Below the pieces are notes generated by a model. The model was not told where the DNA came from, did no database searches, and worked only from the letters and a program-made list of their open reading frames with translations. A stretch of DNA of 53,443 bases, taken from a virus (lineage: Duplodnaviria > Caudoviricetes). Within the stretch, counting starts at the first letter, position 1, and each line of letters starts with the position of its first letter. The position numbers were made by a program, and so were the translations under genes. The DNA is taken from positions 1-53,443 of the IMG/VR virus record IMGVR_UViG_3300005747_000096. One strand, written 5' to 3'. This document shows positions 19,818-42,100 of this stretch, in pieces.

Positions 19818-20567
19818 TTATTCTGCCGCCTGTATTTCATTTATGGCTTGGGTAAATTTGATAGTGGGTTCATTTGCTTCAAACACCGCTTGGGCAAAGC
19901 CCCTAGGCGTTGCGCTTCTAATATTCTTAGTCTTTAGGCTTTTGCCCCCTAACTTTCTATGCTGTCTTGAAGCCCCAAAACTTTCACAATTTACAGGCAA
20001 CGGGGCAGGCATAGCAAAACCGCCCCCCGTCCATAAACAAGTTTTTTTGCTATACGCATCACGGGGCGGGATATGATCGGGCCATTGCGGGTGAATTGCG
20101 TCTTGATCTTGGATATAGCCCCCGAATTGATACGGGTGAAAAGTATGATCGGGCTTGCGCCATATTGTAGATAATACGCTAACGGGGTTTTCGATCATAA
20201 AAGGGCAATCAAGCTTTTCTGCAAGATATGCAATAGCTGAACAATGGCCTGCAGCCTTATCTTGAAAGGCGGGGTCTTTTGCCCGTTTCTTTGCGAAATG
20301 CGCCGCCCCGCTAACTGCAAGATCGGTGCAAGGCGGGAAGCCTAAAACTAAAGCAACCCGCCCCGCATATTCTGCAGCAAGATCTTGCATTGTTTCGGGG
20401 CTATAAAGATCAAGCTTTGCTTTAACCATAAAGCCCCCGTTTTGATAATGATAACAAGATGCGCCGTTGTGCTGTATATCAAAGGCAATGCCCCCATAGC
20501 CTGCATTTACCCAAGGCTGCAGCGCAACCCCTGTAAAATCATAAAGCGATAAGACAAGATCACGCAT
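19818..20567 (-). CDS. Phage DNA cytosine-C5 methyltransferase-like protein
   Basis: Motif I-like 'VLSLYDFTG', catalytic 'GFPPCTDL', motif VI 'IENPV', 'YSKKTCLW'; likely start MRDLVL at 20567. Confidence 0.75.
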   Translation of the reverse strand: MRDLVLSLYDFTGVALQPWVNAGYGGIAFDIQHNGASCYHYQNGGFMVKAKLDLYSPETMQDLAAEYAGRVALVLGFPPCTDLAVSGAAHFAKKRAKDPAFQDKAAGHCSAIAYLAEKLDCPFMIENPVSVLSTIWRKPDHTFHPYQFGGYIQDQDAIHPQWPDHIPPRDAYSKKTCLWTGGGFAMPAPLPVNCESFGASRQHRKLGGKSLKTKNIRSATPRGFAQAVFEANEPTIKFTQAINEIQAAE

Positions 20568-20940
20568 TTTGCACCGCCTTTGCGAAAAGACGCAAGGCAA
20601 GATCAAGATTTGATCTATAGGTTTGACCTGTTGCAAGATCTTGCATTTCAAAGGGATATTTTCGGGCTTTTGAATTATAGCCAATAAGCGAAAAGCTTTT
20701 TCCTTGATCATTGCCAATCTTTGAAACGTCTAAATTATAGAAATTTGCATAAAAATCTAAATCCTTTTCGCTTTGGCTTTTGGCCCCCTTCACTTTTACT
20801 TCAAGCTTAAAGTTTGCAACGTCTTGATCAAAGCTGCATTTTCCCGCATGTATTTCTAAGCCTTCAAATTGCTGCAGGTTTTGAAGCAATGCGTTTATTT
20901 CGCTGCGAATTGATCGGATTTTTTCTTTTGTAAATTTCAT
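20560..20940 (-). CDS. Early hypothetical protein
   Basis: 126 aa, preceded by the repeated RBS AAAAGGAACCGACCAAAATG. Confidence 0.8.
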   Translation of the reverse strand: MKFTKEKIRSIRSEINALLQNLQQFEGLEIHAGKCSFDQDVANFKLEVKVKGAKSQSEKDLDFYANFYNLDVSKIGNDQGKSFSLIGYNSKARKYPFEMQDLATGQTYRSNLDLALRLFAKAVQNA

Positions 20941-20968
20941 TTTGGTCGGTTCCTTTTGCTAGTTACTA

Positions 20969-21024
20969 GCTGCAAAATCTGCAGCCCAAGGCCCCCGCCA
21001 AAGGCAGGGGCTAAAGGCTAAAGA
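20969..21024 (-). repeat. Structured intergenic repeat, copy 1
   Basis: TTTAGCCTTTAGCCCCTGC-CTTTG-GCGGGGGCCTTGGGCTGCAGATTTTGCAGC; near-identical to 22202-22257. Confidence 0.85.
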
Positions 21025-21114: not shown

Positions 21115-21341
21115 TATGCTGCAGCCTTTTTGAATTTATAGGCATTGCCTGATGTTTTAAAGCTTACCAAGGCCCCGTTTAATACGTTTTGAAGCGTTCC
21201 ATATGGAATTGAATGTTCGCTTATGGGTTGCCCCTTTTCATTAAGCAAAATTATATATTCCCAACGCTTTAAATGGCATTGTTTGAAGCTTTGATAGAAG
21301 CTTGTTTCTTTGCCGTTAATTTCTAAAATAAAGCCCCGCAT
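21114..21341 (-). CDS. Early hypothetical protein
   Basis: Likely start MRGFILE at 21341 (TGATG coupling to DUF932 gene). Confidence 0.7.
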   Translation of the reverse strand: MRGFILEINGKETSFYQSFKQCHLKRWEYIILLNEKGQPISEHSIPYGTLQNVLNGALVSFKTSGNAYKFKKAAA

Positions 21342-22171
21342 CACGCTGCAGCCTGTTCTGCGATATCCCAAAGGCCTTGGTTCAATCTCACAATTTCTTT
21401 GAGGCCGGTCACCGCTCTTGCGGATCTTGTTTTTATGCCTTTTGCGTTTCGGGATATGATTGGCAGGCCTGCCCCAAGAATACTTTCTTGAAGCCTATTG
21501 TATACTGTCCAAAGATCTTGGCTTGCGTCTTCAATCCGCTTTGGGTGATTGGCGTGTATCATGGTAACGCTATCCCAAAAGGCCCCCGTGTCGGGGCTTC
21601 TGTCTATTTGTTTCCAGCGTAAATCTAAGGCCTGCCTTGCAAGGCTTTGCTGTTGCTTAATATCAAGCTTAACTGCCTGCATTAGCGATGCGGCTTCCAT
21701 AGCCTTTGGCATGTTTTGGGCTTGCTCTTGCACAAGCTTTTCAAAGCCTGCAGTCTGGCCCCCGTCATGCCTTAGCTTTGCCTGCAGGCCTTCGCCCACG
21801 ATGCAACCATTATCACATGCAAACCGATAAATTCCCGACAGCAAACGCAAGCTTTGCGATGCATCGTGCGAATTCCAAAGCAGAATCTCAGGCCTATGCG
21901 GGGCGTCGTTTAGATCTTGTGCAAAGGCTATCAAGTGGCTTGCAAAAGGGATGTTTGCGCTTTTGCGTGATGGTCTTTGCGCTGCATAAACAGGCTTGAA
22001 CCCGTGATCTTGCAAAATTTCCACGGCCTGCATGGTATCAACAAAATCATAATTTTTTGACGTTTTAGGGGCAGGGCTTGGGGTAAATGCTGCAGGGCAT
22101 TTATCTAAAAGATCCGCTTGCGAAAGCATTGTGCGGGGGGTTTTGTCGGTGATCATTAAATCATATGGCAT
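21341..22171 (-). CDS. DUF932 (YubP/TIGR03299-like) protein
   Basis: 'PEILLWNSHDAS..LLSGIYRFACDNG', 'DLWTVYNRLQE', 'RLNQGLW'. Confidence 0.85.
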   Translation of the reverse strand: MPYDLMITDKTPRTMLSQADLLDKCPAAFTPSPAPKTSKNYDFVDTMQAVEILQDHGFKPVYAAQRPSRKSANIPFASHLIAFAQDLNDAPHRPEILLWNSHDASQSLRLLSGIYRFACDNGCIVGEGLQAKLRHDGGQTAGFEKLVQEQAQNMPKAMEAASLMQAVKLDIKQQQSLARQALDLRWKQIDRSPDTGAFWDSVTMIHANHPKRIEDASQDLWTVYNRLQESILGAGLPIISRNAKGIKTRSARAVTGLKEIVRLNQGLWDIAEQAAA

Positions 22172-22201
22172 TTTGGTCGGTTCCTTTTTTTTAGGTTTAT
22201 T

Positions 22202-22257
22202 GCTGCAAGATTGCAGCCCAAGGCCCCCGCAAATTGCAGGGGCTAAAGGCTAAAATC
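22202..22257 (-). repeat. Structured intergenic repeat, copy 2
   Basis: TTTAGCCTTTAGCCCCTGC-AATTT-GCGGGGGCCTTGGGCTGCAATCTTGCAGC. Confidence 0.85.
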
Positions 22258-22491
22258 TTAAAAGATATCTGCCCCCATGATGTTTAAAAGCTTTGGGTTT
22301 GGGGGGCTTTCTGCATAATGCTTTTTGATATCTGCAGCCATTTCACTTTTGTCAGTATAAAAAGAACCGTCCGCAAAAAAGCTTTCACCGTCTTGATCAA
22401 GCAACCAATAGCCCCAACCGTTTTGGTTTCTTTCGGTTCCAATCTTTGCGCCTATGGTAGACGCTAAAAAGCGCAATTCTTTAATTGTCAT
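22258..22491 (-). CDS. Early hypothetical protein
   Basis: Likely start MTIKELRF at 22491 (TAATG coupling). Confidence 0.65.
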   Translation of the reverse strand: MTIKELRFLASTIGAKIGTERNQNGWGYWLLDQDGESFFADGSFYTDKSEMAADIKKHYAESPPNPKLLNIMGADIF

Positions 22492-22727
22492 TAAACCGCC
22501 CCCGCTGTTTTTTCTTCTAATTCTTGGGGCGTGTTTGCAGTAACGCATTCAATGATTGAAACGGTGAAGACATCACCCATTTTTTGGGCCTGCTTAAAAA
22601 TATTGCTTTCTATGCTGTCTTCGATTGTGCGGCAGGTATTGCCTAAAACAGACATATCTAAAACCCGTCCTTTGAATTCTTGGTTGTATATGCCGTTTAT
22701 GGTTGCGATTGCTTCAAAGTATTTCAT
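22491..22727 (-). CDS. Early hypothetical protein
   Basis: 78 aa, preceded by AAAAGGAACCGACCAAAATG. Confidence 0.75.
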   Translation of the reverse strand: MKYFEAIATINGIYNQEFKGRVLDMSVLGNTCRTIEDSIESNIFKQAQKMGDVFTVSIIECVTANTPQELEEKTAGAV

Positions 22728-22826
22728 TTTGGTCGGTTCCTTTTGTCAAAAGTTAAGGGGCAAAGCTTATGCCCTGCCCCTTGTTATTTCATTTCCACAA
22801 TTTAGTAAAGCCACTTTATTAATCTT

Positions 22827-23378: not shown

Positions 23379-24149
23379 CTATTCTGCAGCCAAGAGAAAG
23401 CCCTTGCCCGCTTGAGCAAGATCTTTAGGAAAACAGGCTTGCGCTTGTGCGGGGCATTGTGTTGTTTGGCTTGGCTCTACTATAAACAAGCTTTTGCTTT
23501 TCTTGGCTTCATTGCCTTTCAGTTTAAGCCCGATAATTTTGCCCCGTTGTTTTTGGTTTTTGATATCGGACAAATCACCGTCAACAATTTCACGGCCTAA
23601 GAAATAAGAACCGACAGGCACAAAGCCCCGAAAGACAACGGCAACAGGCCTGTCGGTTTGAAGCGCTCGCTTCACTTGCTTTTGATATTTTGGCTCTTGG
23701 GAATATGAAAAAATAATATCATAGTTAGGCGGCAAATTGTGCAGCCTTTGGGCGCTTTTGGTATAGTCTAGAAAATAGGCTTGGGGGTATCTTTGGGGGA
23801 TGCCATATCTTTCCCAAGGGATATCGCTTATTGTGTTAAGCCTAATAGCAGGGCTTTTATTTGTGCGGATGCAAAGTGATATAAAGTTTTGTATTTCTTT
23901 ATTCCATTGATCAAGAAAGCCCTGCCTATCTTTCATATAAAAATCAGTTTTGGATTGCCTGCCATTTCTGACATTCGAGAAAGCCCCAAAGCCCGCTTCT
24001 ACTAAGCAAGGCTCTTTGCAACCCGCTAAGATTGCTGCAGGGCAAATTGTATCGTTTGGATAAAGAGAAAGGCTTGCAATCCGCAACCCGCTTTCCTTTT
24101 GGCTCTTTCTAACTTTTGTGTTGCTTGCGCTTGTATCAAGTAATTTCAT
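23379..24149 (-). CDS. Gp88-like family protein
   Basis: 'CP......GCKEPCL', 'IRLNTISDIPWE', 'FLDYTK', 'VAVVFR', 'VDGDLSD', 'IIGLKLKG'. Confidence 0.75.
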   Translation of the reverse strand: MKLLDTSASNTKVRKSQKESGLRIASLSLYPNDTICPAAILAGCKEPCLVEAGFGAFSNVRNGRQSKTDFYMKDRQGFLDQWNKEIQNFISLCIRTNKSPAIRLNTISDIPWERYGIPQRYPQAYFLDYTKSAQRLHNLPPNYDIIFSYSQEPKYQKQVKRALQTDRPVAVVFRGFVPVGSYFLGREIVDGDLSDIKNQKQRGKIIGLKLKGNEAKKSKSLFIVEPSQTTQCPAQAQACFPKDLAQAGKGFLLAAE

Positions 24150-24370
24150 TTCTTGGTTTCCTTTTCGTTTTAGATTTTTGCAGATCTTGGGGTTTGTCTT
24201 TTGGGTTGGTTAGGCCCGCCCTTTAATCTGCCACCCAATAGAAACGAAAAACGCAAAGCAATCAAGCGCAAATTTGCACAAATAAAAAGCACATAAAAAG
24301 AATTTATTATTCCTTCCTGGTGGGTGTAATTATTTCTTGAGTTCAATATCTAACTATCATATAGATACCT

Positions 24371-24631: not shown

Positions 24632-24661
24632 TACGCATTCTCGCCTAAGTAGTTTTAAATT

Positions 24662-24683
24662 AGACCCTTCGGGGTCTTTTTTT
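24662..24683 (+). terminator. Intrinsic terminator
   Basis: AGACCC-TTCG-GGGTCT followed by a T tract. Confidence 0.85.
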
Positions 24684-24685
24684 AT

Positions 24686-24762
24686 AAAAAACCCCCGCCA
24701 AAGAAAGGGAATTGGCGAGGGCTGCTACTAGCAAGGAGACATAGGCTGGGAGGATGCCTACA
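24686..24762 (-). ncRNA. Candidate anti-Shine-Dalgarno (cuckoo/CcsR-like) sRNA
   Basis: TTGCAT..TATATA promoter at 24796-24769; hairpin UAGGC-AUCCUCCCA-GCCUA, single-stranded GUCUCCUU, terminator CCCUCGCCAA-UUCCCUUUCU-UUGGCGGGGG-U6. Confidence 0.55.
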
Positions 24763-24872
24763 AAACCATATATATATAATGCACTATATAATGCAACTAC
24801 TATTTTATTAATTGACTTTATTAATGCCACTCAGTTACATGGTATCAGCCTCATAACCTTTGGGAGACTGAT

Positions 24873-25946
24873 ATGGCGCATATAAAATACCTGAGAAGGA
24901 AAACACTAGAGAGTGGACATAAGATCTGGGTGGTTAATCCACCTAAATACGTCAAAGAAGCTATTGGTGCTTACTATGAGCAGTTTTCTGATCAATCAGA
25001 TGCTACTGCGAGAGCAATCAGTATTGCGGATCAGTACACCGACTACAAAAGAAACATTAAGCGTGAAGTTCATATTAATGAGCGCACGGTTGGTGGCTTA
25101 GTTAATCAGTATAAGCAAACTAACAGTTGGAATAAGCTAACCGACAACTCTAAAAGAACCTACGACCAGTTGTTGCGGGGTACACTTAGATTACGGGTTA
25201 GTGAGTCACCCAAGTTGCTACAGGACATGCTGATAGAGCATATTTCTGTTAAACATGCAGAGTATTTGTACTCACACCTGTGCAAAGATGTAAGTATGCA
25301 CAGAGCAAACCATGTGTGTAAGGTACTCAGACGCATATGGACAGTAGGCCAGCGTCTTGGGTTAACAAAAGTCAATCCATTTAAGAATATGGGTCTAAGG
25401 AAGACGCCATCCCGTACTGTTCTATGGGAACCAGAGCAAGTACATGCATTTGTCGATAAAGCAGATGAAATGGGCACTCCTTCTCTGGGTACGATGGCTT
25501 TGCTTTGCTATGACCTATGCCAGAGGCCAGGAGATATGCGTCAGCTTACTTGGCAGGACTTTCGTGATCAGATCTTTGGGTTTGAGCAGGAAAAGAATAA
25601 GACATGGGTAGATATCCCTGCCTCTCCACGGCTGTTAGAGCGGATGCAATTGGTATCCCCAAGCAACTGGCATGATCAGATTGTGTATTACGAAAAGACA
25701 GGCAAACCATATGACCGCAGGCAGTACAATAAAGTCTTCTGTCGGATCAGAAACGCTGCAGGTCTGCCCTCTGAGTTACAGCTAAGAGATCTTAGACGTA
25801 CAGGTGCAACTGAAATGGCAGAAGCTGGCTGTACTGAGGACGAATTGCGTTCTGTAACGGGCCACCAGAGCCGTGACGTTCTTTCTATCTATGTAAGGCC
25901 TACAAGAAAGCTTGCCGCTGCAGGCATAAACAAGCGGTTTGGATAA
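24873..25946 (+). CDS. int: Tyrosine integrase
   Basis: Catalytic set present: 'CQRPGD', 'QEKNK', 'RDLRRTGAT', 'TGH', 'IYVRP'; GGAG RBS. Confidence 0.92.
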   Translation: MAHIKYLRRKTLESGHKIWVVNPPKYVKEAIGAYYEQFSDQSDATARAISIADQYTDYKRNIKREVHINERTVGGLVNQYKQTNSWNKLTDNSKRTYDQLLRGTLRLRVSESPKLLQDMLIEHISVKHAEYLYSHLCKDVSMHRANHVCKVLRRIWTVGQRLGLTKVNPFKNMGLRKTPSRTVLWEPEQVHAFVDKADEMGTPSLGTMALLCYDLCQRPGDMRQLTWQDFRDQIFGFEQEKNKTWVDIPASPRLLERMQLVSPSNWHDQIVYYEKTGKPYDRRQYNKVFCRIRNAAGLPSELQLRDLRRTGATEMAEAGCTEDELRSVTGHQSRDVLSIYVRPTRKLAAAGINKRFG

Positions 25947-35581: not shown

Positions 35582-35775
35582 AGTCTTATAGGGATCAGAC
35601 ATTCTGTGAGTGCGACTGCACAAACATGATCTGTCACCTCTATTACGACACAGGCGTATTACAGGACGCCAAAGATGCGGGATTGCCCATCATTACATCG
35701 GATCAGTCCAAAGGCTGTTCCTCTTATTTAAAACCAAAAACAGTACAAGAAATCGGGAGCCACAATGAGCAGTAA
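35578..35775 (+). CDS. Small Cys-rich protein
   Basis: 'DQTFCECDCTNMIC'; overlaps both neighbours. Confidence 0.55.
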   Translation: MKSYRDQTFCECDCTNMICHLYYDTGVLQDAKDAGLPIITSDQSKGCSSYLKPKTVQEIGSHNEQ

Positions 35776-37759
35776 TCAACAAACCTTTTCAACCCGTGCC
35801 AACGTAATTACACGCCGCACCTACAACCGCCCTTTGAACGACGAAGGCACAATATTTGAGACATGGGAGCAGACAGTTGCCCGTGTGATTGACCACCAGA
35901 AGTGGCTATGGGAACGTGCTAAAGGCAGCACCTTAGTTGAATCTGAATTGTCAGAACTTGAGGAACTTCGTGACCTAATGGTCAACCGCCAAGCTACCGT
36001 ATCAGGACGTACCCTTTGGTTAGGCGGTACGGACGTAGCCAAAAACCGTGAGGCCTCTCAGTTCAATTGCAGCTTTGGGCGCTCTGAAACTGTGCATGAT
36101 ATTGTGGATCAGTTCTGGCTTCTCCTACAGGGCTGTGGGGTAGGCTTTGAGCCTGTTCGTGGAACACTAAACGGGTTTGCAAAGCCTGTAGAGGTTGAGG
36201 TCATTAGATCCACCCGAACAGAGCGTGGAATTGAGGGTAACCAAGAGAAAACATACATCAGTGATGATGGAAAAAAAGTACATCAAATAACTGTGGGTGA
36301 TAGTGCAGAGGCTTGGGCTAAAAGCATAGGTAAAGTCTTGGCGCTTAAAAAGCCAATTGATACTCTGATTTTAGACTTCTCAGAAATACGCCCTGCGGGT
36401 GAACGCCTAAAAGGTTACGGCTGGATTTCGTCGGGTGATGATACAATCAGCGTTGCCTTTGTTAAAATATGCGGCATCCTAAATAAACGTGCAGGTAAAC
36501 TTCTCACTCGCATCGATATCCTAGACATCCTGAATCACTTAGGAACTACACTATCATCACGCCGAAGTGCTGAGATTGCTCTGATGCCAATTGATGATCC
36601 AGAGATTGATGAATTTATTGTAGCTAAGAAAGATTTCTGGGAACACGGAAACGAACACCGCCAGCAATCAAATAACTCAATTGTATTCCATTCTAAGCCA
36701 ACTAAATGGGAATTGTCCTACATCTTTGACCGCATGGTTGAGGCTGGTGGAAGTGAACCAGGATTTGTTAATGCAGAAGCTGCAAAGCGTAGAGCGCCCT
36801 ATTTTAAAGGGGGAAACCCATGTTTTGAAATACTTTTAGGAAATAAGAGTTTTTGCAACCTAGTTGAGTGTGATCTAGGCAAGTTTCTGTCAGATACCCC
36901 TGCTTTAGAACGTGCAATGTGGGTTATCGCACGGGCAAACTATCGCCAAACCTGCGTTAATCTGGATGACGGGGTTCTACAGCGTTCATGGCACGAATTA
37001 AATGAATTTCTGCGTTTATGCGGTGTTGGATTGACGGGTATCGTGAAGTTTTTGGACTTTCATGGGCCTGAATCACCAAATAGGCTCAGAAACCTAAAGT
37101 ATCAGGCTCATACGGGCGCAAACAGCATGGCAGACACACTTGGACTGCCACGCCCACAGAATATCTGCACCGTTAAGCCAAGCGGAAGCCTCTCAAAAAT
37201 CATGGATACGACTGAGGGGGTGCATAAACCGTTAGGTAAGTATTTATTCAACAATGTAACCTTCTCCAAGCACGATCCGTTGGTTCCTGTACTTAAAGCG
37301 GCTAACTATAAAGTAGTTACAAAGCCATTTGAGCCAGACAGCGTGTTGGTTACGTTTCCTGTTGTTTATAACGATGTTAAATTCACGGAAGTTGATGGAA
37401 AATATGTAAATATCGAAACAGCCGTAAAACAGCTAGATCGATACAAAATGATGATGGATCATTATGTTGATCATAACTGTTCCGTAACCATTTCGTATGA
37501 CGTAGGTGAGATCCCTGCCATAATCGATTGGATCATGGAAAATTGGGATAGCTATGTAGGTGTTTCGTTTATCTACCGTAATGATCCTACCAAAACAGCC
37601 GAAGATCTGGGTTATGCTTATTTACCTCAAGAGGTGGTTACGCATGATGAGTATAAAACCTACTCCGATAATCTTTGGCCCGTTGATTTAGACGGTGCAA
37701 ACAGCCTTCTAGAATTAACAGAAGACGAATGTGCGACAGGTGCATGTCCAATTCGGTAA
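35765..37759 (+). CDS. nrdJ: Class II (adenosylcobalamin-dependent) ribonucleotide reductase, monomeric type
   Basis: 'SQFNCS', 'NPCFEI', 'FCNL', 'TVKPSGS', C-terminal 'CATGACPIR'; no beta-subunit gene. Confidence 0.92.
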   Translation: MSSNQQTFSTRANVITRRTYNRPLNDEGTIFETWEQTVARVIDHQKWLWERAKGSTLVESELSELEELRDLMVNRQATVSGRTLWLGGTDVAKNREASQFNCSFGRSETVHDIVDQFWLLLQGCGVGFEPVRGTLNGFAKPVEVEVIRSTRTERGIEGNQEKTYISDDGKKVHQITVGDSAEAWAKSIGKVLALKKPIDTLILDFSEIRPAGERLKGYGWISSGDDTISVAFVKICGILNKRAGKLLTRIDILDILNHLGTTLSSRRSAEIALMPIDDPEIDEFIVAKKDFWEHGNEHRQQSNNSIVFHSKPTKWELSYIFDRMVEAGGSEPGFVNAEAAKRRAPYFKGGNPCFEILLGNKSFCNLVECDLGKFLSDTPALERAMWVIARANYRQTCVNLDDGVLQRSWHELNEFLRLCGVGLTGIVKFLDFHGPESPNRLRNLKYQAHTGANSMADTLGLPRPQNICTVKPSGSLSKIMDTTEGVHKPLGKYLFNNVTFSKHDPLVPVLKAANYKVVTKPFEPDSVLVTFPVVYNDVKFTEVDGKYVNIETAVKQLDRYKMMMDHYVDHNCSVTISYDVGEIPAIIDWIMENWDSYVGVSFIYRNDPTKTAEDLGYAYLPQEVVTHDEYKTYSDNLWPVDLDGANSLLELTEDECATGACPIR

Positions 37760-37950
37760 TGCGTCATAATACATCAGATTCTCCGTTTGAGTTAGGTTAC
37801 CAAGCCTTCTTTGACGGGGAGTTTGTATGCCAGTACCGCCCTAAGTCTCACTACCACCGTGAGTGGCAGCGGGGCTTCAACAAAGCCTACTTTTACAACA
37901 GGAATACACATGTACAAAGCATTCCAATCGAAAGACTTCAACAAGTATGA
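37759..37950 (+). CDS. Small protein with RMF-like motif
   Basis: MRHNTSDSPFELGYQAFFDGEFVCQYRPKSHYHREWQRGFNKAY..; TAATG-coupled. Confidence 0.55.
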   Translation: MRHNTSDSPFELGYQAFFDGEFVCQYRPKSHYHREWQRGFNKAYFYNRNTHVQSIPIERLQQV

Positions 37951-38329
37951 TGAAGCTGCCAGAAACCGTGCTAAAGAGTTTTGGGAAAGCCAAGGATATA
38001 CCTGCACGGATCACGATGATGAATATGATGTAGATCTTGTAGTAGAAAAGAACGGTAAGCGGTTTTACTGTGAGGTTGAGGTTAAAACCGTCTGGCATGG
38101 CAAAGACTTTAAGTATAATACCATTCATATTCCTGTGCGGAAGGCTAAGTTCTTAGGTAAACCTACGCAGTTTATGGTCTTTAATAACAGCCTTACCCAT
38201 GCTGCCGTAATAGGTCGCAAAAAGGTGCTAAATGCGACTAAAGTAGACGTGCCTAACAGAAAGATTGCCTTTGGCGAAAAGTTCTTTGATATACCGAAAG
38301 AAGATGCCATATTTGTGCAAACTATATAA
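37910..38329 (+). CDS. PD-(D/E)XK nuclease-like protein
   Basis: Likely start MYKAFQ at 37910 (AGGA RBS); 'YDVDLVV..FYCEVEVK'. Confidence 0.65.
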   Translation: MYKAFQSKDFNKYDEAARNRAKEFWESQGYTCTDHDDEYDVDLVVEKNGKRFYCEVEVKTVWHGKDFKYNTIHIPVRKAKFLGKPTQFMVFNNSLTHAAVIGRKKVLNATKVDVPNRKIAFGEKFFDIPKEDAIFVQTI

Positions 38330-38364
38330 AAGAAAAAGCCTCAAGGCGATTGACCTCAAGGCTT
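38328..38364 (-). terminator. Intrinsic terminator for the minus-strand structural arm
   Basis: Minus strand AAGCCTTGAGG-TCAATCG-CCTTGAGGCTT-TTTCTTTT (pairs fully with G-U only on this strand). Confidence 0.7.
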
Positions 38365-38384
38365 AATTTTTATATAACAGAAAG

Positions 38385-38452
38385 TGAATTGAACCTTGGT
38401 CGGTTCCAATTCGTTTTAGATTGAACCCTCAGATTTAGGTCTGGGGGTTTTT
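38385..38452 (+). ncRNA. Candidate trans-antisense sRNA against early-gene RBSs
   Basis: TTGACC-N17-TATAAC (38350-38378); hairpin GAAUUG-AACC-[UUGGUC]-GGUU-C-CAAUUC; terminator AACCCUCAGA-UUUAGG-UCUGGGGGUU-UUU. Confidence 0.6.
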
Positions 38453-38455
38453 CTA

Positions 38456-41400
38456 TTATCCATCCCCGCCAAAGATACGACTACCAAACTGTTGCATGTC
38501 TCTATCCATACCAAAGCGAACATCTTCTTGTCCGTATTCATCTTGCTCAATAACCCGCATTTCATAACGCCCTGTTCGCACTGCAGAGTTAATTGCTAGG
38601 CTCATTGCCTGTCTGAATCTGGGTTCTGGCGAGCCATCTGCGTATTGCTTAATTGCTTTAGAAAAAGCTTTGGGGTCAGTAACCGCTATAGCTAACACAT
38701 GGGCAGCTACTTCTTTTTGTAGCTTTTCCTTTTCAGCAATCGGCGCTGATGTTAATCGCCGTAGCATAGCGGCTGTTGGGTTCATATAACCTGCAGTCAG
38801 GAGAATGGCGGTTGATACAGCATCCCTAATATCATTATTTATTACAGTATCAGATCCAGCCTGTGCTACTTTCATGCGGCTTGGAATACTGGCATCATAC
38901 AGAACCCCTAATGTTTGCAGCACAGATTCTTTCATCAAACCGTTTTCTGATGCGTCTGCAGGGAATACCAAATCAATAGACTTCATTAGGTTTGATGCAT
39001 CATCAGAGGACAGTTTATTTACTTGTCCAAGTGCTATAGCTTTTTTGCCTTTAGATGTGGGAGTTGCCCCAGTTAGTTTAGAACCAACCGTATCAAGTGC
39101 CACTGCCTGCAAAGCTTCAAGTGCTTGCTTTTTCTGATTACCTTCAAGCAGAGCAACACGATCCAAAACGGTTTGTATTTTATTAGCGCTATCTGCACCT
39201 GTCATAATGCTGGATAATACATCCCTTGCATTAGACACCGGCCGTAGAGCAGTCGGCCCTTGTGCATCTAGACCTAATGGTCTTCCTGGTTCGTCGCTTA
39301 TAAGCTTGCCGATTATGCTTTCTTGCGCTTGTCTGGCTTGTGCCTCAAGCTGCTCTTTAAGCGTGTCATTAGCCAGAACCATATCGCCCAGATTTCCACG
39401 GGCATCTTCTATCTGTTTTACTGCCTCATCTAATTTAGCAAGAGTTGCAGTATCCCCAATATCAGAAAGTTTCTGCCGAATACCCTTGAAAGCATTTACA
39501 ACCATTGCTTCTGTTTGAGGATTATCACCAGACATTGCTATAGCTTCACGTAGCTGTTGAGTGGCGTTGGCTACAAACAAATCACCAAATGCGCCATCTA
39601 GTTCTCTGGGAGATCTAACCCCGTCCAACATGAAGTCTAATTGGGTTCTAAGCAGACCTGTCGTATCTGCAACTACCTGATCAGAAAATACCTGTCCTTG
39701 AGTACCAGCGTCTACTTCATTTCGATCAAGTGGCCCTGGAATCTCGCCTCTAGGATTTGTTTCAGGATCAAACGCACGTCTGGCCCCTAACTTATCTTCT
39801 AGTGCCCGTGACTCTTGAGAGTTTGAAAATTTAGCCTTTGCTTCTTTAAAAACGGCATCCGCATTACGATACTGGTCAGCTATATCAGGATAAGTATTAA
39901 TTACATGCGCCATCTGACCGCTGTCAGCGTCAGTAATATGATCTCTGAATTCTATCAGTCTTTTTCTTACTTCGGGGTCACCGCTATAAGAGTCAATCAC
40001 GCTGGATAGGTTTTTCTTAATAGCATACAGATCTTTAAATTTAATCTGATCTGCAATCCTATTGGTAATCTGTTCTGGTGTTTCTCTTGCTACGACAATA
40101 GAGGCCTCTTCACCTGCTATAGGTAAAGGGTCTGGGATACGTTTAGTAACATTAGCATCAAAGGGCGCAATGATAGCCCTAAGAACATCCCCTGCCTTGC
40201 GCCCAGACTCATCCATAATATTAGAAGCAGCAACAACCTGATTAAGTTTGCTTTTTAGCAATGCCGCATCAATCGGGGCGTCAGGTAAGTTATCGTAAGT
40301 TGCAGCTACATTATCAAAGGTATCTTTGAACGTCTTATAAACGTCATTGGTAAATATCTCTTGGACAACATCCCGATACTTTTCGGGATCTGTATTGAAT
40401 ACTGTCGAACTACCCAACATGTCTTCAATGATTGGATTTTGTTCTACAACCTTAGATTGTTGTGAGAGTAGCTCATCCGTTTGTCGAGTAACATCGGATA
40501 CTTGTGTTCGTAGGCCTGCCATTTCAGTATCAACATCGCCTACAACATCTTTTGCTAATCTCTGTGCAGCCTGATCCACGGGGCCGGTAGTAGCATTCGG
40601 GTCTATATTTCTACCTTGCCTAGCAAGTTGATCTGCACTTTGGTTTATAAACCCTGCTACCTCAGTAGCCGTTTTATCTACAGATGACGCCACAACTGGA
40701 TTAGATAATTGGCTTCGCATCAGACCAATCATAGCAGAGGACATTCTTGCGGCTTCTTGCTCTACAAACTCATCATACTCAACCTTGGACATGGTATCCA
40801 TTAGCTTCTGGTTTGCTTCACGCACGTAAGCCTCAGAGGCCCGTAGCATAGCAACAGATGTGTCCGCTTTAATGTCCGCTTTAGATTGGCCCAGCGCAAC
40901 CTCAATAACAGAGTTATTGTTTAGCTTTTCAGCCAACAGATATAGTCTGCGCTTTGTTTCATCCGCAGAAACTTCGAATATCTTGGGATCAAGGTAGGTA
41001 ATAATTCCCTTTAATGTATCATCTTCCGCAGCCCGTGATAGTACATTGTTGTTCAGTAATTTAGTTGACTCACTGACTAACTCTTTACCTTTCCCATAAA
41101 CTGGGCCTATTACGTTTTTACCAACTGCTAATATACCGTCGAATGCGCCGTTGAGAAACAAGCCATCCAAGAACATGGAAACATCTTTGGCCTGTTGCTC
41201 ATTAAGAAAGGTTCCTTGCAGTGTGCTAGGAGTAATCAATAAACCAGTATCACCTTCCTTTGACATTATAGTTTCAACAATAGAAGTAATTAATGCATCA
41301 TCATATATTTGTGCTCTTTTTGCTAATTTCTCTCCACCTTTTACATAGGGAGATACAAATTTTCCTACATATCTAGACGCCCCTACCATTGGAATTACAG

Positions 41401-42100
41401 GCGCTGCTATAGAAAGCAAATCGGTAAACAATTGCTCACCGCCCTGCATTTGATAGTCGGCTATGTTACGCTCTAAGTTACTTTCCCCAGTAAACTTCCC
41501 TTCTGTAACAAGGCCCCCAAATTGCTGGAATATATCCTTACCTGCCTGCTCAACAGAACGCCCAAAAGCGGAACTTGCAGGATCAGGTATTTTAAATAGA
41601 TATTCTTTATTTACTGTATTTCCGTTTTCATCTTCTTCGGTAACTACTTTTGTGTAGAACCGATTAGAACCATCTTGGTATCCTGTATTATTATATATTT
41701 CCTGAGAGCTTGTATTAAACTGTGCTACTGCTTCATCATATTCAGCAAGAGCTTTTTGATTGCTTGTTAGTACACCACTTTCTGGATCTGGTGCTTTTTC
41801 AAATACAGAGGCAACTTTAGCCCCAAGAGGATAATCAGGGTATTCTCCATATAATCCTTCATAGGAAAGGCTGTCTCTTTGTGAACCTGCGGATTTAACT
41901 TCTTCTGTTACATCCCGTGAAAGCCCAGCGCCTGATGTAGGCTCACGGGTTTCTGTTTCAGATAAACCAAGTCCATCTAAATCAAGCGAGGGGTTTCGTT
42001 TTAAAAGTGCATCAAGTTCAGGATCTAGAAGATTTTCATCCTCTTCTTCCTCTAACCCAAGAGCCTTTAAATCTAAGTCTTGAAGTGTGCGCTCTGCCAT
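38456..42100 (-). CDS. Large internal virion (ejection) protein
   Basis: 1214 aa, helical, last gene of the structural arm. Confidence 0.7.
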   Translation of the reverse strand: MAERTLQDLDLKALGLEEEEDENLLDPELDALLKRNPSLDLDGLGLSETETREPTSGAGLSRDVTEEVKSAGSQRDSLSYEGLYGEYPDYPLGAKVASVFEKAPDPESGVLTSNQKALAEYDEAVAQFNTSSQEIYNNTGYQDGSNRFYTKVVTEEDENGNTVNKEYLFKIPDPASSAFGRSVEQAGKDIFQQFGGLVTEGKFTGESNLERNIADYQMQGGEQLFTDLLSIAAPVIPMVGASRYVGKFVSPYVKGGEKLAKRAQIYDDALITSIVETIMSKEGDTGLLITPSTLQGTFLNEQQAKDVSMFLDGLFLNGAFDGILAVGKNVIGPVYGKGKELVSESTKLLNNNVLSRAAEDDTLKGIITYLDPKIFEVSADETKRRLYLLAEKLNNNSVIEVALGQSKADIKADTSVAMLRASEAYVREANQKLMDTMSKVEYDEFVEQEAARMSSAMIGLMRSQLSNPVVASSVDKTATEVAGFINQSADQLARQGRNIDPNATTGPVDQAAQRLAKDVVGDVDTEMAGLRTQVSDVTRQTDELLSQQSKVVEQNPIIEDMLGSSTVFNTDPEKYRDVVQEIFTNDVYKTFKDTFDNVAATYDNLPDAPIDAALLKSKLNQVVAASNIMDESGRKAGDVLRAIIAPFDANVTKRIPDPLPIAGEEASIVVARETPEQITNRIADQIKFKDLYAIKKNLSSVIDSYSGDPEVRKRLIEFRDHITDADSGQMAHVINTYPDIADQYRNADAVFKEAKAKFSNSQESRALEDKLGARRAFDPETNPRGEIPGPLDRNEVDAGTQGQVFSDQVVADTTGLLRTQLDFMLDGVRSPRELDGAFGDLFVANATQQLREAIAMSGDNPQTEAMVVNAFKGIRQKLSDIGDTATLAKLDEAVKQIEDARGNLGDMVLANDTLKEQLEAQARQAQESIIGKLISDEPGRPLGLDAQGPTALRPVSNARDVLSSIMTGADSANKIQTVLDRVALLEGNQKKQALEALQAVALDTVGSKLTGATPTSKGKKAIALGQVNKLSSDDASNLMKSIDLVFPADASENGLMKESVLQTLGVLYDASIPSRMKVAQAGSDTVINNDIRDAVSTAILLTAGYMNPTAAMLRRLTSAPIAEKEKLQKEVAAHVLAIAVTDPKAFSKAIKQYADGSPEPRFRQAMSLAINSAVRTGRYEMRVIEQDEYGQEDVRFGMDRDMQQFGSRIFGGDG

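What the first reader, a model, noticed from the sequence alone, without database searches (positions are those of the whole stretch)
38350..38452. Candidate phage sRNA antisense to the shared RBS of early genes 14-17 kb away
Seen: the gap between the converging arms holds a sigma70-like promoter (TTGACC-N17-TATAAC), a hairpin with loop UUGGUC and an intrinsic terminator, giving a ~68-nt RNA with no ORF. Its 12-mer UUGGUCGGUUCC (38396-38407) is the exact complement of GGAACCGACCAA in the leader AAAAGGAACCGACCAAAAUG of three early genes (20942-20953, 22173-22184, 22729-22740). The adjacent UUCGUUUUAGAUU (38410-38422) is the exact complement of the leader of the first early gene, Gp88-like (24164-24176). 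Inference: one trans-acting sRNA shuts off translation of four early cistrons through a loop-exposed seed, either at the early-to-late switch or in the lysogen. No CI-like repressor is evident, so this could be part of the lysogeny control.
Basis: partly seen in the sequence, partly recalled or inferred. Interest (0 to 1): 0.9.

Follow-up and report, generated by a model that had tools for sequence, protein, structure and literature searches.

The report
Conserved phage sRNA targeting early-gene leaders
A small non-coding RNA gene, conserved in one group of abundant marine roseophages, is complementary to the ribosome-binding leaders of several of the phage's own early genes and has changed together with them from genome to genome, so it most likely switches those genes off.

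Summary
The gap 38330-38455 carries a self-contained + strand unit. It has a -35 TTGACC (38350-38355), a 17-nt spacer, a -10 TATAAC (38373-38378), a hairpin with loop UUGGUC, a U-rich linker and an intrinsic terminator. The RNA is about 68 nt (38385-38452) and has no ORF.

The unit is present in 39 of 40 IMG/VR relatives, 4 cultured phages (CRP-3, CRP-212, CRP-235, CRP-738) and 5 further contigs. The -35 and the loop are invariant, and all 6 hairpin pairs show compensatory changes.

In each of 10 other genomes examined, that genome's own sRNA matches its own early leaders. Two boxes flank the Shine-Dalgarno sequence: GACCAA pairs with the loop, and a genome-specific upstream box pairs with the linker. 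For the GP88-like leader, own matches are 13-16 nt and matches to other sRNA types are 5-8 nt.

Best reading: a trans-acting antisense sRNA that blocks translation of the first cistron of each early gene cluster. Expression, repression and timing (lysogenic immunity versus temporal shut-off) are not shown. It matches no Rfam family and was not found in the literature searched.

The parts
38336..38364 (-). Hairpin followed by a U-run on the - strand. It is the likely terminator of the leftward (late) operon, and its loop and 3' half carry the -35 of the sRNA promoter.
   Evidence: One search lists it as terminator-like on the - strand only. One search gives -16.4 kcal/mol on the - strand (z -4.25) against -11.3 on the + strand.
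38350..38355 (+). -35 hexamer TTGACC
   Evidence: Invariant in 32 of 32 distinct sequences.
38373..38378 (+). -10 hexamer TATAAC, 17 nt after the -35
   Evidence: In the alignment, positions T24, A25 and A27 are invariant, and the hexamer reads TATAAT in many relatives.
38385..38452 (+). Predicted sRNA of about 68 nt. The start is inferred from the -10; the end is the U-run.
   Evidence: Fold. Covariance model R1 scores 75.8 bits, E 8e-16. No Rfam family matches.
38386..38412 (+). Hairpin 1. The loop UUGGUC lies at 38396-38401.
   Evidence: All 6 pairs show compensatory change, 94.4% of cells are paired, and 0 of 500 shuffles reach this. The loop is invariant in 21 of 21 distinct hairpins.
38413..38422 (+). 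Unpaired U-rich linker, which pairs with the upstream box of the leaders
   Evidence: Its sequence differs between genomes and matches each genome's own leaders.
38423..38452 (+). Intrinsic terminator: a 12-bp hairpin and U5. It ends 3 nt before the stop codon of the - strand gene 38456-42100.
   Evidence: One search gives -18.9 kcal/mol on the + strand against -10.9 on the - strand, which has no U-run. Compensatory changes are seen.
24150..24176 (-). Leader of the GP88-family gene (23379-24149). A 13-nt box at 24164-24176 is complementary to the sRNA linker.
   Evidence: Rank 1 of 190 initiation regions, -26.6 kcal/mol.
22728..22746 (-). Leader AAAAGGAACCGACCAAA of the 78-aa gene 22491-22727. 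The 12-mer lies at 22729-22740.
   Evidence: Joint rank 3-4 of 190.
22172..22190 (-). Leader of the DUF932 gene 21341-22171. The 12-mer lies at 22173-22184.
   Evidence: Rank 2 of 190.
20941..20959 (-). Leader of the 126-aa gene 20560-20940. The 12-mer lies at 20942-20953.
   Evidence: Joint rank 3-4 of 190.

Best explanation
This is a host-RNA-polymerase-transcribed, roughly 68-nt trans-acting antisense sRNA of an integrase-bearing HMO-2011-type roseophage (the clade of CRP-3, CRP-212, CRP-235 and CRP-738).

Proposed mechanism. The invariant hexaloop UUGGUC nucleates pairing with GACCAA, which sits between the Shine-Dalgarno sequence and the AUG of several early genes. Pairing then spreads in one of two ways: into the 3' arm of the hairpin, covering the Shine-Dalgarno itself (as in this window), or through the single-stranded linker to a second box just 5' of the Shine-Dalgarno. 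The ribosome-binding site is then buried, and the first cistron of each early gene cluster is not translated. Overlapping downstream cistrons would probably be shut off with it.

Shown: the anatomy, its conservation, the compensatory changes, and the within-genome complementarity that co-varies between genomes.

Inferred: transcription, repression as the sign of the effect, the 'early' timing of the targets (judged from their position), and the biological role.
For: (1) Module conservation. It is present in 39 of 40 IMG/VR relatives found through the neighbouring 172-aa gene. The 40th locus, L021, ends before the place where its near-identical sibling carries the module. It is also present in CRP-235, CRP-3 and CRP-212, in CRP-738, and in 5 further contigs among 79 pattern hits.

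(2) The -35 TTGACC is invariant, the core of the -10 is invariant at a spacing of about 17 nt, and a terminator with a U-run is always present on the + strand.

(3) Hairpin 1. All 6 of 6 pairs have changes on both sides, 94.4% of 126 cells pair, 0 of 500 shuffles reach this, and slid controls reach at most 58.7%. The + strand pairs 119 of 126 cells against 113 of 126 on the - strand.

(4) In the window, the four leaders rank 1-4 of 190 initiation regions: -26.6, -25.8, -23.3 and -23.3 kcal/mol, against a mean of -12.5 and sd of 3.6. They are also the four longest exact complementary matches anywhere in the genome on either strand.

(5) Co-variation. The upstream box differs between genomes and equals the complement of that genome's sRNA linker. 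For the GP88-like leader in 7 genomes, the own or same-type match is 13-16 nt and the match to other types is 5-8 nt. In 6 of 7 sRNA types, the type's own sRNA gives the best mean duplex energy with its own leaders.

(6) Orthologous targets. The GP88-like leader is a target in 7 of 7 genomes that have the gene, and the DUF932 leader matches by 7-12 nt in 4 of 4, only 7 nt in G002.

(7) The last 25-30 nt of all four window leaders are predicted to be unpaired.
Against: There are no expression data. No RNA run is on record for this phage, and the runs that could be laid are contigs only.

The window's -10 ends in C rather than the usual T, and the scanner rejects it for that reason.

Hairpin 1 folds about equally well on both strands in the window, and the strand preference from G-U pairs is modest.

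For the window's three identical leaders, the sRNA of relative G003 scores slightly better than the window's own (-26.0 against -24.5).

The leaders and the - strand of the sRNA locus are direct repeats at the DNA level, so homogenisation by recombination cannot be formally excluded.

The sign of the regulation is inferred only from the position of the duplex over the ribosome-binding site.
Confidence: 0.72

Rival explanations
1. The RNA and its pairing are the same, but the effect is positive. Binding would stabilise or activate the early mRNAs, for example by protecting them from RNases or by creating processing sites that free the cistrons.
For: Three of the four leaders lie directly after stable hairpins, so processing or stability control in these gaps is conceivable. 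Pairing alone does not give the sign of the effect.
Against: The leaders are predicted open, with no inhibitory structure to relieve. The duplex covers the Shine-Dalgarno and the spacer up to 3-4 nt from the AUG, which is the classical position for repression.
Confidence: 0.08
2. The functional strand is the - strand. On this view the late operon's 3' UTR carries a leader look-alike that titrates a leader-binding factor, or the element mainly mediates convergent-transcription interference. The match to the leaders would then reflect shared recognition by that factor rather than RNA-RNA pairing.
For: The - strand has no terminator until 38364-38336, so late transcripts should run antisense through the whole sRNA gene. 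Hairpin 1 folds on both strands.
Against: The invariant -35 and -10 at fixed spacing, and a terminator that works only on the + strand, have no purpose in this model. G-U pairs favour the + strand. The spacing between the boxes, and which box is present, vary among leaders. That fits pairing, not a fixed protein site.
Confidence: 0.06
3. The repeated sequence is a DNA operator for an unidentified phage protein. It would be present at the early leaders and once more in the convergent gap, and protein specificity would explain the co-variation.
For: All copies lie in the same orientation on one DNA strand. The boxes differ between phages in the way operators of heteroimmune phages do.
Against: It gives no reason for a 5' arm that is complementary to the box-flanking sequence and shows compensatory changes, nor for the promoter and terminator bracket. 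The sites sit at start codons, not at promoters. No HTH_3, S24 or CI-type protein was found.
Confidence: 0.04
4. It is a duplication relic or a chance match with no function.
For: The 13-mer taken alone is only borderline significant (1 of 100 shuffles).
Against: A relic would decay independently of the leaders. Instead, the match is renewed in every one of the 10 other genomes despite different sequences, and the module is conserved in at least 49 records in all.
Confidence: 0.02

Closest known systems
c4 antisense RNA of phages P1 and P7
   Same: It is a phage-encoded small RNA whose exposed segments pair with short complementary sites around the ribosome-binding site of a phage mRNA and block translation. 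Differences in the paired sequences give heteroimmunity between relatives (review PMC12197685, passage read).
   Different: c4 has one target operon (ant). From recall, it is processed from the same transcript that carries its target. Here the RNA has its own promoter and terminator and lies 14-17 kb from 3-7 dispersed targets. There is no sequence or structure similarity: no Rfam family reaches its gathering score in the window, and C4 is not among the 24 weak matches at E up to 10.
CI RNA of satellite phage P4
   Same: An RNA rather than a protein keeps the element's own early (replication) genes off. It pairs with two complementary sequences in the target transcript (PMC4825925, passage read). 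Like P4, this phage shows no recognisable protein repressor.
   Different: CI acts by premature transcription termination and is made by processing of a leader transcript. Here the sites bracket the Shine-Dalgarno of several genes, and the RNA has its own promoter.
Trans-encoded multi-target sRNAs, including phage-derived ones (VpdS, PreS, DicF)
   Same: Own promoter, Rho-independent terminator with a U-tail, a short seed, and several targets hit at the ribosome-binding site (listing and table passages of PMC12197685).
   Different: According to the passages read, those RNAs act mainly on host genes or host sRNAs. Here the targets are the phage's own early genes, which share a repeated leader, and pairing is bipartite around the Shine-Dalgarno. 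Dependence on Hfq is unknown.
Cis-antisense phage RNAs (lambda OOP, P22 sar)
   Same: Small phage RNAs that control lysis-lysogeny genes by base pairing (passages).
   Different: Those are transcribed opposite their target gene. This RNA overlaps only the 3' end of the late operon, and its leader targets lie elsewhere in the genome.

Membership tests
Trans-encoded base-pairing sRNA (general class) | Independent transcription unit: own promoter and intrinsic terminator, with no ORF | tested here: met
   This rests on sequence and conservation only; transcription was not observed.
Trans-encoded base-pairing sRNA (general class) | Short complementarity to mRNAs encoded elsewhere, at or near the ribosome-binding site | tested here: met
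   The targets rank 1-4 of 190.
Trans-encoded base-pairing sRNA (general class) | Seed and target conserved or co-varying in relatives | tested here: met
   in 10 of 10 other genomes.
Trans-encoded base-pairing sRNA (general class) | The RNA is detected in cells and changes target expression | not testable with these tools
   No RNA holder is listed, and only contigs could be laid.
Rfam C4 antisense RNA family (P1/P7 type) | Match to the family covariance model | tested here: not met
   There were 0 families at gathering score over the whole window. C4 is absent from the 24 matches at E up to 10 in 38300-38480.
Cis-encoded antisense RNA | Transcribed from the strand opposite its target gene at the same locus | tested here: not met
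   The leader targets lie 14-17 kb away. The sRNA overlaps only the presumed 3' UTR of gene 38456-42100.
U-turn (YUNR) recognition loops of antisense RNAs | Loop contains 5'-Y-U-N-R-3'. The motif definition is recalled, not taken from a call. | tested here: met
   The loop UUGGUC begins with UUGG and is invariant in 21 of 21 distinct hairpins. The three-dimensional U-turn itself was not tested.
Hfq-dependent sRNA | Binds Hfq through the terminator U-tail and an A/U-rich internal site | not testable with these tools
   A U-rich linker and a U5 tail are present. This is suggestive only.

The most novel reading that the evidence does not exclude
The sRNA is the immunity repressor of these integrase-bearing phages, which show no protein repressor. 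From a near-consensus host promoter it would keep the leftward early genes untranslated in the lysogen and in superinfecting homologous phages. The genome-specific linker/upstream-box pair would define heteroimmunity groups among phages that share a host: CRP-3, CRP-212 and CRP-235 all infect FZCC0040 and carry three different boxes. The late operon's antisense 3' UTR would neutralise the sRNA once lytic transcription runs through.
Probability: 0.3. Interest if true: 0.85.

Novelty: new variant of a known kind. Interest (0 to 1): 0.75.

Why it matters
HMO-2011-type phages are described as a dominant and broadly distributed marine viral group (abstract of PMC9038755). Their gene regulation is uncharted: the two genome papers searched contain no mention of promoters, terminators, sRNA or antisense RNA.

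This would be a phage sRNA that controls a regulon of the phage's own early genes through a repeated leader, with natural compensatory evidence already spread over dozens of environmental genomes. It gives a testable handle on two questions. One is how an integrase-bearing phage without a recognisable repressor controls early expression. The other is whether RNA-based immunity specificity structures co-infecting marine phage populations. Cultured phage-host pairs exist for direct tests.

Tried and rejected
A genome-wide RNA duplex scan in 40-nt windows was too noisy, because GC-rich coding windows outscored the leaders in some genomes. I replaced it with exact-match scans, an initiation-region ranking and an anchored own-versus-cross comparison.

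Expression: no RNA holder is listed. The two runs offered are viral-metagenome contigs labelled RNA-Seq by guess. Laid on 37600-39200, they show only that relatives' contigs cover the module and diverge after 38456. This bears neither for nor against expression.

Prophage copies: a protein-pattern scan of genome contigs with the 172-aa neighbour found no relative. A 22-nt pattern of the commonest hairpin type found 0 matches. These scans say nothing firm about lysogeny.

Rfam: nothing at gathering score, and only sub-threshold matches at E up to 10.

More distant HMO-2011-type phages gave no R1 match: HMO-2011 (50 of 55 kb searched), CRP-345 (6 kb), CRP-207 (12 kb) and CRP-1 (12 kb). In the last three, the convergent gap is only about 27-40 nt by annotation. 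In HMO-2011 the gap holds a promoter-like site and a terminator, but its sequence has no leader matches: the longest exact matches are 11 nt and none lies at a start codon.

A hexamer count, GACCAA within 5 nt of an ATG that opens an ORF of at least 40 aa, gave 32 sites in 10 sRNA-bearing genomes, about 12.75 for the mean of 8 same-composition controls, and 0 in HMO-2011. It is supportive but crude, because internal ATGs are counted.

The secondary R1 matches in 5 loci (27.8-34.3 bits) lack the UUGGUC loop and are driven by the terminator in the three aligned. I did not count them as members.

The MAFFT alignment A1 misplaces the loop of the L010-type sequences. I therefore took the hairpin statistics from the ungapped alignment A2.

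One literature search was badly framed (880 papers) and is not used. 'Not in print' rests on four things: searches (HMO-2011 plus small RNA, 0 papers; roseophage plus sRNA, 1 paper, listing only, about a Vibrio phage), and term searches within PMC9038755 and PMC6918029. Supplementary files were not opened, and Fig. S2 of PMC6918029 (the att site) was not seen.

Full report
WHAT THE WINDOW IS. The window is a whole IMG/VR virus record of 53,443 bp, estimated 100% complete. Its nearest cultured relatives are the Roseobacter RCA phages CRP-235, CRP-3, CRP-212 and CRP-738, which are HMO-2011-type podophages.

Their annotation shows a common plan. A rightward arm carries integrase, thymidylate synthase, primase, helicase, DNA polymerase, MazG and ribonucleotide reductase. 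A leftward arm starts with about 15 small genes of unknown function and continues through terminase, portal, coat and tail genes to a last gene of 1100-1300 aa.

In the window, the integrase is 24873-25946 and the ribonucleotide reductase is 35765-37759. The rightward arm ends at 38329 and the leftward arm ends at 38456. The finding lies in the 126-nt gap where the two arms converge.

THE OBSERVATION.

The 12-mer occurs four times, all on the - strand, against 0.16 expected; 0 of 100 shuffles reach four. Three copies lie directly before AAATG of ORFs of 78, 276 and 126 aa.

The 13-mer occurs twice; 1 of 100 shuffles reaches two. Its second copy lies in the leader of the first leftward gene, a GP88-family protein (PF17338, E 7e-29). 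The 276-aa target is a DUF932 protein (PF06067).

ANATOMY OF THE GAP. On the + strand the order is as follows:
- A hairpin at 38336-38364, whose loop and 3' half contain TTGACC (38350-38355).
- 17 nt, then TATAAC (38373-38378).
- A hairpin at 38386-38412 with loop UUGGUC.
- A 10-nt unpaired U-rich linker.
- A 12-bp hairpin at 38423-38450 followed by U5.

The two outer hairpins are strand-specific. The left one is stronger on the - strand (-16.4 against -11.3 kcal/mol) and is followed there by a U-run, so it is the terminator of the leftward operon. The right one is stronger on the + strand (-18.9 against -10.9) and has a U-run only there.

The small + strand unit is therefore nested, in antisense, within the last roughly 120 nt of the leftward transcript. 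That transcript should carry a perfect complement of the sRNA. No ORF starts within the predicted RNA.

CONSERVATION. The 172-aa gene to the left of the gap brought in 40 IMG/VR loci at 58-95% protein identity.
- A first pattern finds the module in 37 of them.
- A relaxed pattern raises this to 38.
- The covariance model finds it in L036.
- The last locus, L021, ends before the place where its near-identical sibling L020 has the module.

CRP-235, CRP-3 and CRP-212 have it. CRP-738 has a variant with a 9-bp stem and a 12-nt loop that contains UUGGUC.

A protein-independent pattern scan of IMG/VR returned at least 119 stretches, of which 79 new loci were searched. Seventeen carry a strong model match of at least 58.7 bits. 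Twelve of those are contigs already known and five are new. The other 62 are chance pattern hits.

In 32 distinct sequences the -35 is invariant, the core of the -10 (T, A, A) is invariant, and the spacer is free to vary. The loop hexamer is invariant in 21 of 21 distinct hairpins.

All six stem pairs show changes on both sides (40 cells in all). 94.4% of cells pair, 0 of 500 shuffles reach this, and slid partners give 35.7-58.7%. G-U pairs make the + strand pair slightly better, 119 against 113 of 126. The terminator stem also shows compensatory changes.

No Rfam family matches.

THE TARGETS IN THE WINDOW. I took the 5' 38 nt of the RNA and computed its duplex energy with the -35 to +6 region of every ORF of at least 50 aa on both strands, 190 regions in all.

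An unbiased search for exact complementary words on both strands gives the same four sites as the four longest matches, at 13, 12, 12 and 12 nt.

In all four leaders, the last 25-30 nt before the AUG are predicted to be unpaired. In three of them this stretch follows stable hairpins.

Each target is the first ORF after an intergenic gap, and the ORFs behind it abut or overlap. Blocking these four start sites could therefore silence whole clusters. That step is inference.

CO-VARIATION, THE DECISIVE TEST. I examined ten further genomes: five IMG/VR records fetched whole (two are 84% and 88% complete) and four cultured phages, with one IMG/VR pair of each of two sRNA types.

Each has exactly one module. 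Each has two to seven leaders built as: upstream box, Shine-Dalgarno, GACCAA, 0-5 nt, ATG.

GACCAA, the complement of the loop, is constant. The upstream box differs from genome to genome and is the complement of that genome's own linker. Seven different upstream boxes are seen across the types. Three of them belong to CRP-3, CRP-212 and CRP-235, which infect the same host strain.

Positions flanking the loop co-vary too. In the commonest type, UUUGGUCA in the sRNA faces UGACCAAA in the leaders. In CRP-738, GAUUGGUCC faces GGACCAAUC.

For the orthologous GP88-like leader in seven genomes, the longest exact match to the genome's own or same-type sRNA is 13-16 nt, and to any other type it is 5-8 nt. 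For the DUF932 leader in four genomes, the own match is 7-12 nt and the cross match is 5-8 nt.

In a matrix of mean duplex energies, the own sRNA is the best partner for the leaders of 6 of 7 types. The exception is the window's own three leaders, which the G003 sRNA fits slightly better; G003 has the same hairpin.

In each of the seven genomes scanned this way (one per sRNA type; G004 and G005 were not scanned), the longest exact matches to the sRNA's complement are 11-15 nt and lie just upstream of start codons in the early region; CRP-738 gave the same picture.

WHY PAIRING RATHER THAN A SHARED DNA SITE OR A RELIC. At the DNA level, the leaders and the - strand of the sRNA locus are direct repeats, so three rivals need weighing: a protein operator, homogenisation by recombination, and a decaying duplicate.
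- A relic would not be renewed in every genome.
- An operator or a conversion tract does not explain the 5' arm of the hairpin. That arm exists only at the sRNA locus and changes in step with the 3' arm.
- Neither explains the case of G001 and G004, where the 3' arm departs from the leader sequence so as to keep the stem.
- Neither explains the promoter and the + strand terminator that bracket the element.
- The leaders also differ in which box they carry and in the spacing between boxes. RNA pairing tolerates this; a fixed protein site would not.

MECHANISM PROPOSED. The loop begins with UUGG, which fits the Y-U-N-R motif of rapid-pairing antisense loops. That motif is recalled, not tested here.

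I propose loop-to-GACCAA nucleation next to the AUG. Pairing would then invade the 3' arm across the Shine-Dalgarno, as in the window and G003, where 12-13 contiguous pairs are possible. Alternatively the linker would make a second contact with the upstream box. Either way the ribosome-binding site is enclosed and initiation is blocked. Repression is inferred from this geometry only.

The U-rich linker and the U-tail would suit Hfq, which is untested.

BIOLOGICAL ROLE. This remains open.
- All 11 genomes with the module, including the window, carry an integrase.
- CRP-3 is reported to integrate into a tRNA-Met gene (passage of PMC6918029).
- Six-frame searches of the window for HTH_3, Peptidase_S24 and Phage_CI_repr find nothing.
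- Ten small or neighbouring ORFs show no regulator domain.

This makes an RNA-based immunity function, as in P4 or the c4 system of P1/P7, a serious possibility. A timer that shuts off early translation during lytic growth fits the data equally well.

More distant HMO-2011-type phages lack the module in the DNA examined: HMO-2011 itself, CRP-1, CRP-207 and CRP-345. No prophage copy was found in representative bacterial genomes.

NOVELTY. The kind is known: a phage antisense RNA acting at a ribosome-binding site. This family is not. It matches no Rfam model and was not mentioned in the literature searched.

It differs from c4, CI, OOP and sar in three ways. It is an autonomous gene far from its targets. 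It serves a regulon of dispersed leaders. Its pairing is bipartite around the Shine-Dalgarno.

I rate it a new variant of a known kind. It has unusually strong comparative support for a purely computational case, but no experimental support yet.

Noticed in passing
window 20960-21020 and 22190-22250 (- strand): The two intergenic regions ahead of the 126-aa and DUF932 genes share a module of about 55 nt with two GC-rich hairpins before the leader, so whole intergenic cassettes are repeated in the early region and not only the leader.
   Followed up: partly
window 38336-38456: The leftward (late) operon has no terminator until after it has crossed the whole sRNA gene. Its 3' UTR should therefore be a perfect anti-sRNA, and the two transcription units collide head-on. 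This could act as a sponge or interference circuit.
   Followed up: partly
L020-L022, L024 and L038, directly after the 172-aa gene homologue (for example L021 3548-3621): Some relatives have a second small unit upstream of the sRNA: a TTGACT-N17-TACTAT promoter-like site, a hairpin with an AUUGGUA loop region, and a terminator. It gives a weak R1 match (20.8 bits). It may be a second, diverged sRNA.
   Followed up: no
L063 11487-11645 (phage HMO-2011): The equivalent convergent gap of HMO-2011 holds TTGATT-N17-TTTAAT and a strong terminator about 110 nt further on. The sequence is unrelated and has no leader matches.
   Followed up: partly
window 38453-38460, with L002-L004 and contigs of X1 and X2: Close relatives are nearly identical through the sRNA terminator and then diverge abruptly in the last late gene. 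The module therefore sits at a mosaic (recombination) boundary.
   Followed up: no
G002 47921, G005 2735 and G004 6081 (+ strand): Leader boxes of the same type also precede a 55-aa gene just after the integrase in two relatives, and the 405-aa gene (helicase-sized) in another. Targets may therefore not be confined to the leftward arm.
   Followed up: no
window 22433-22443 (- strand): An 11-nt exact complement to the sRNA (ATTGGAACCGA) lies inside the 96-aa ORF 22258-22548 rather than at a start codon. It may be chance or an internal site.
   Followed up: no
window 24660-24830: The divergent control region between the GP88-like gene and the integrase holds back-to-back terminator-like hairpins (+ 24662-24677, - 24709-24692) and promoter-like sites on the - strand (24830-24783). 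This hints at another short transcription unit.
   Followed up: no
L057/L059 (CRP-235 gp61) and L062 (CRP-738 gp64): The annotated starts of the first leftward genes lie 63-69 nt upstream of the ATG that carries the leader boxes and aligns with residue 1 of the window's protein. These annotations are probably too long.
   Followed up: partly
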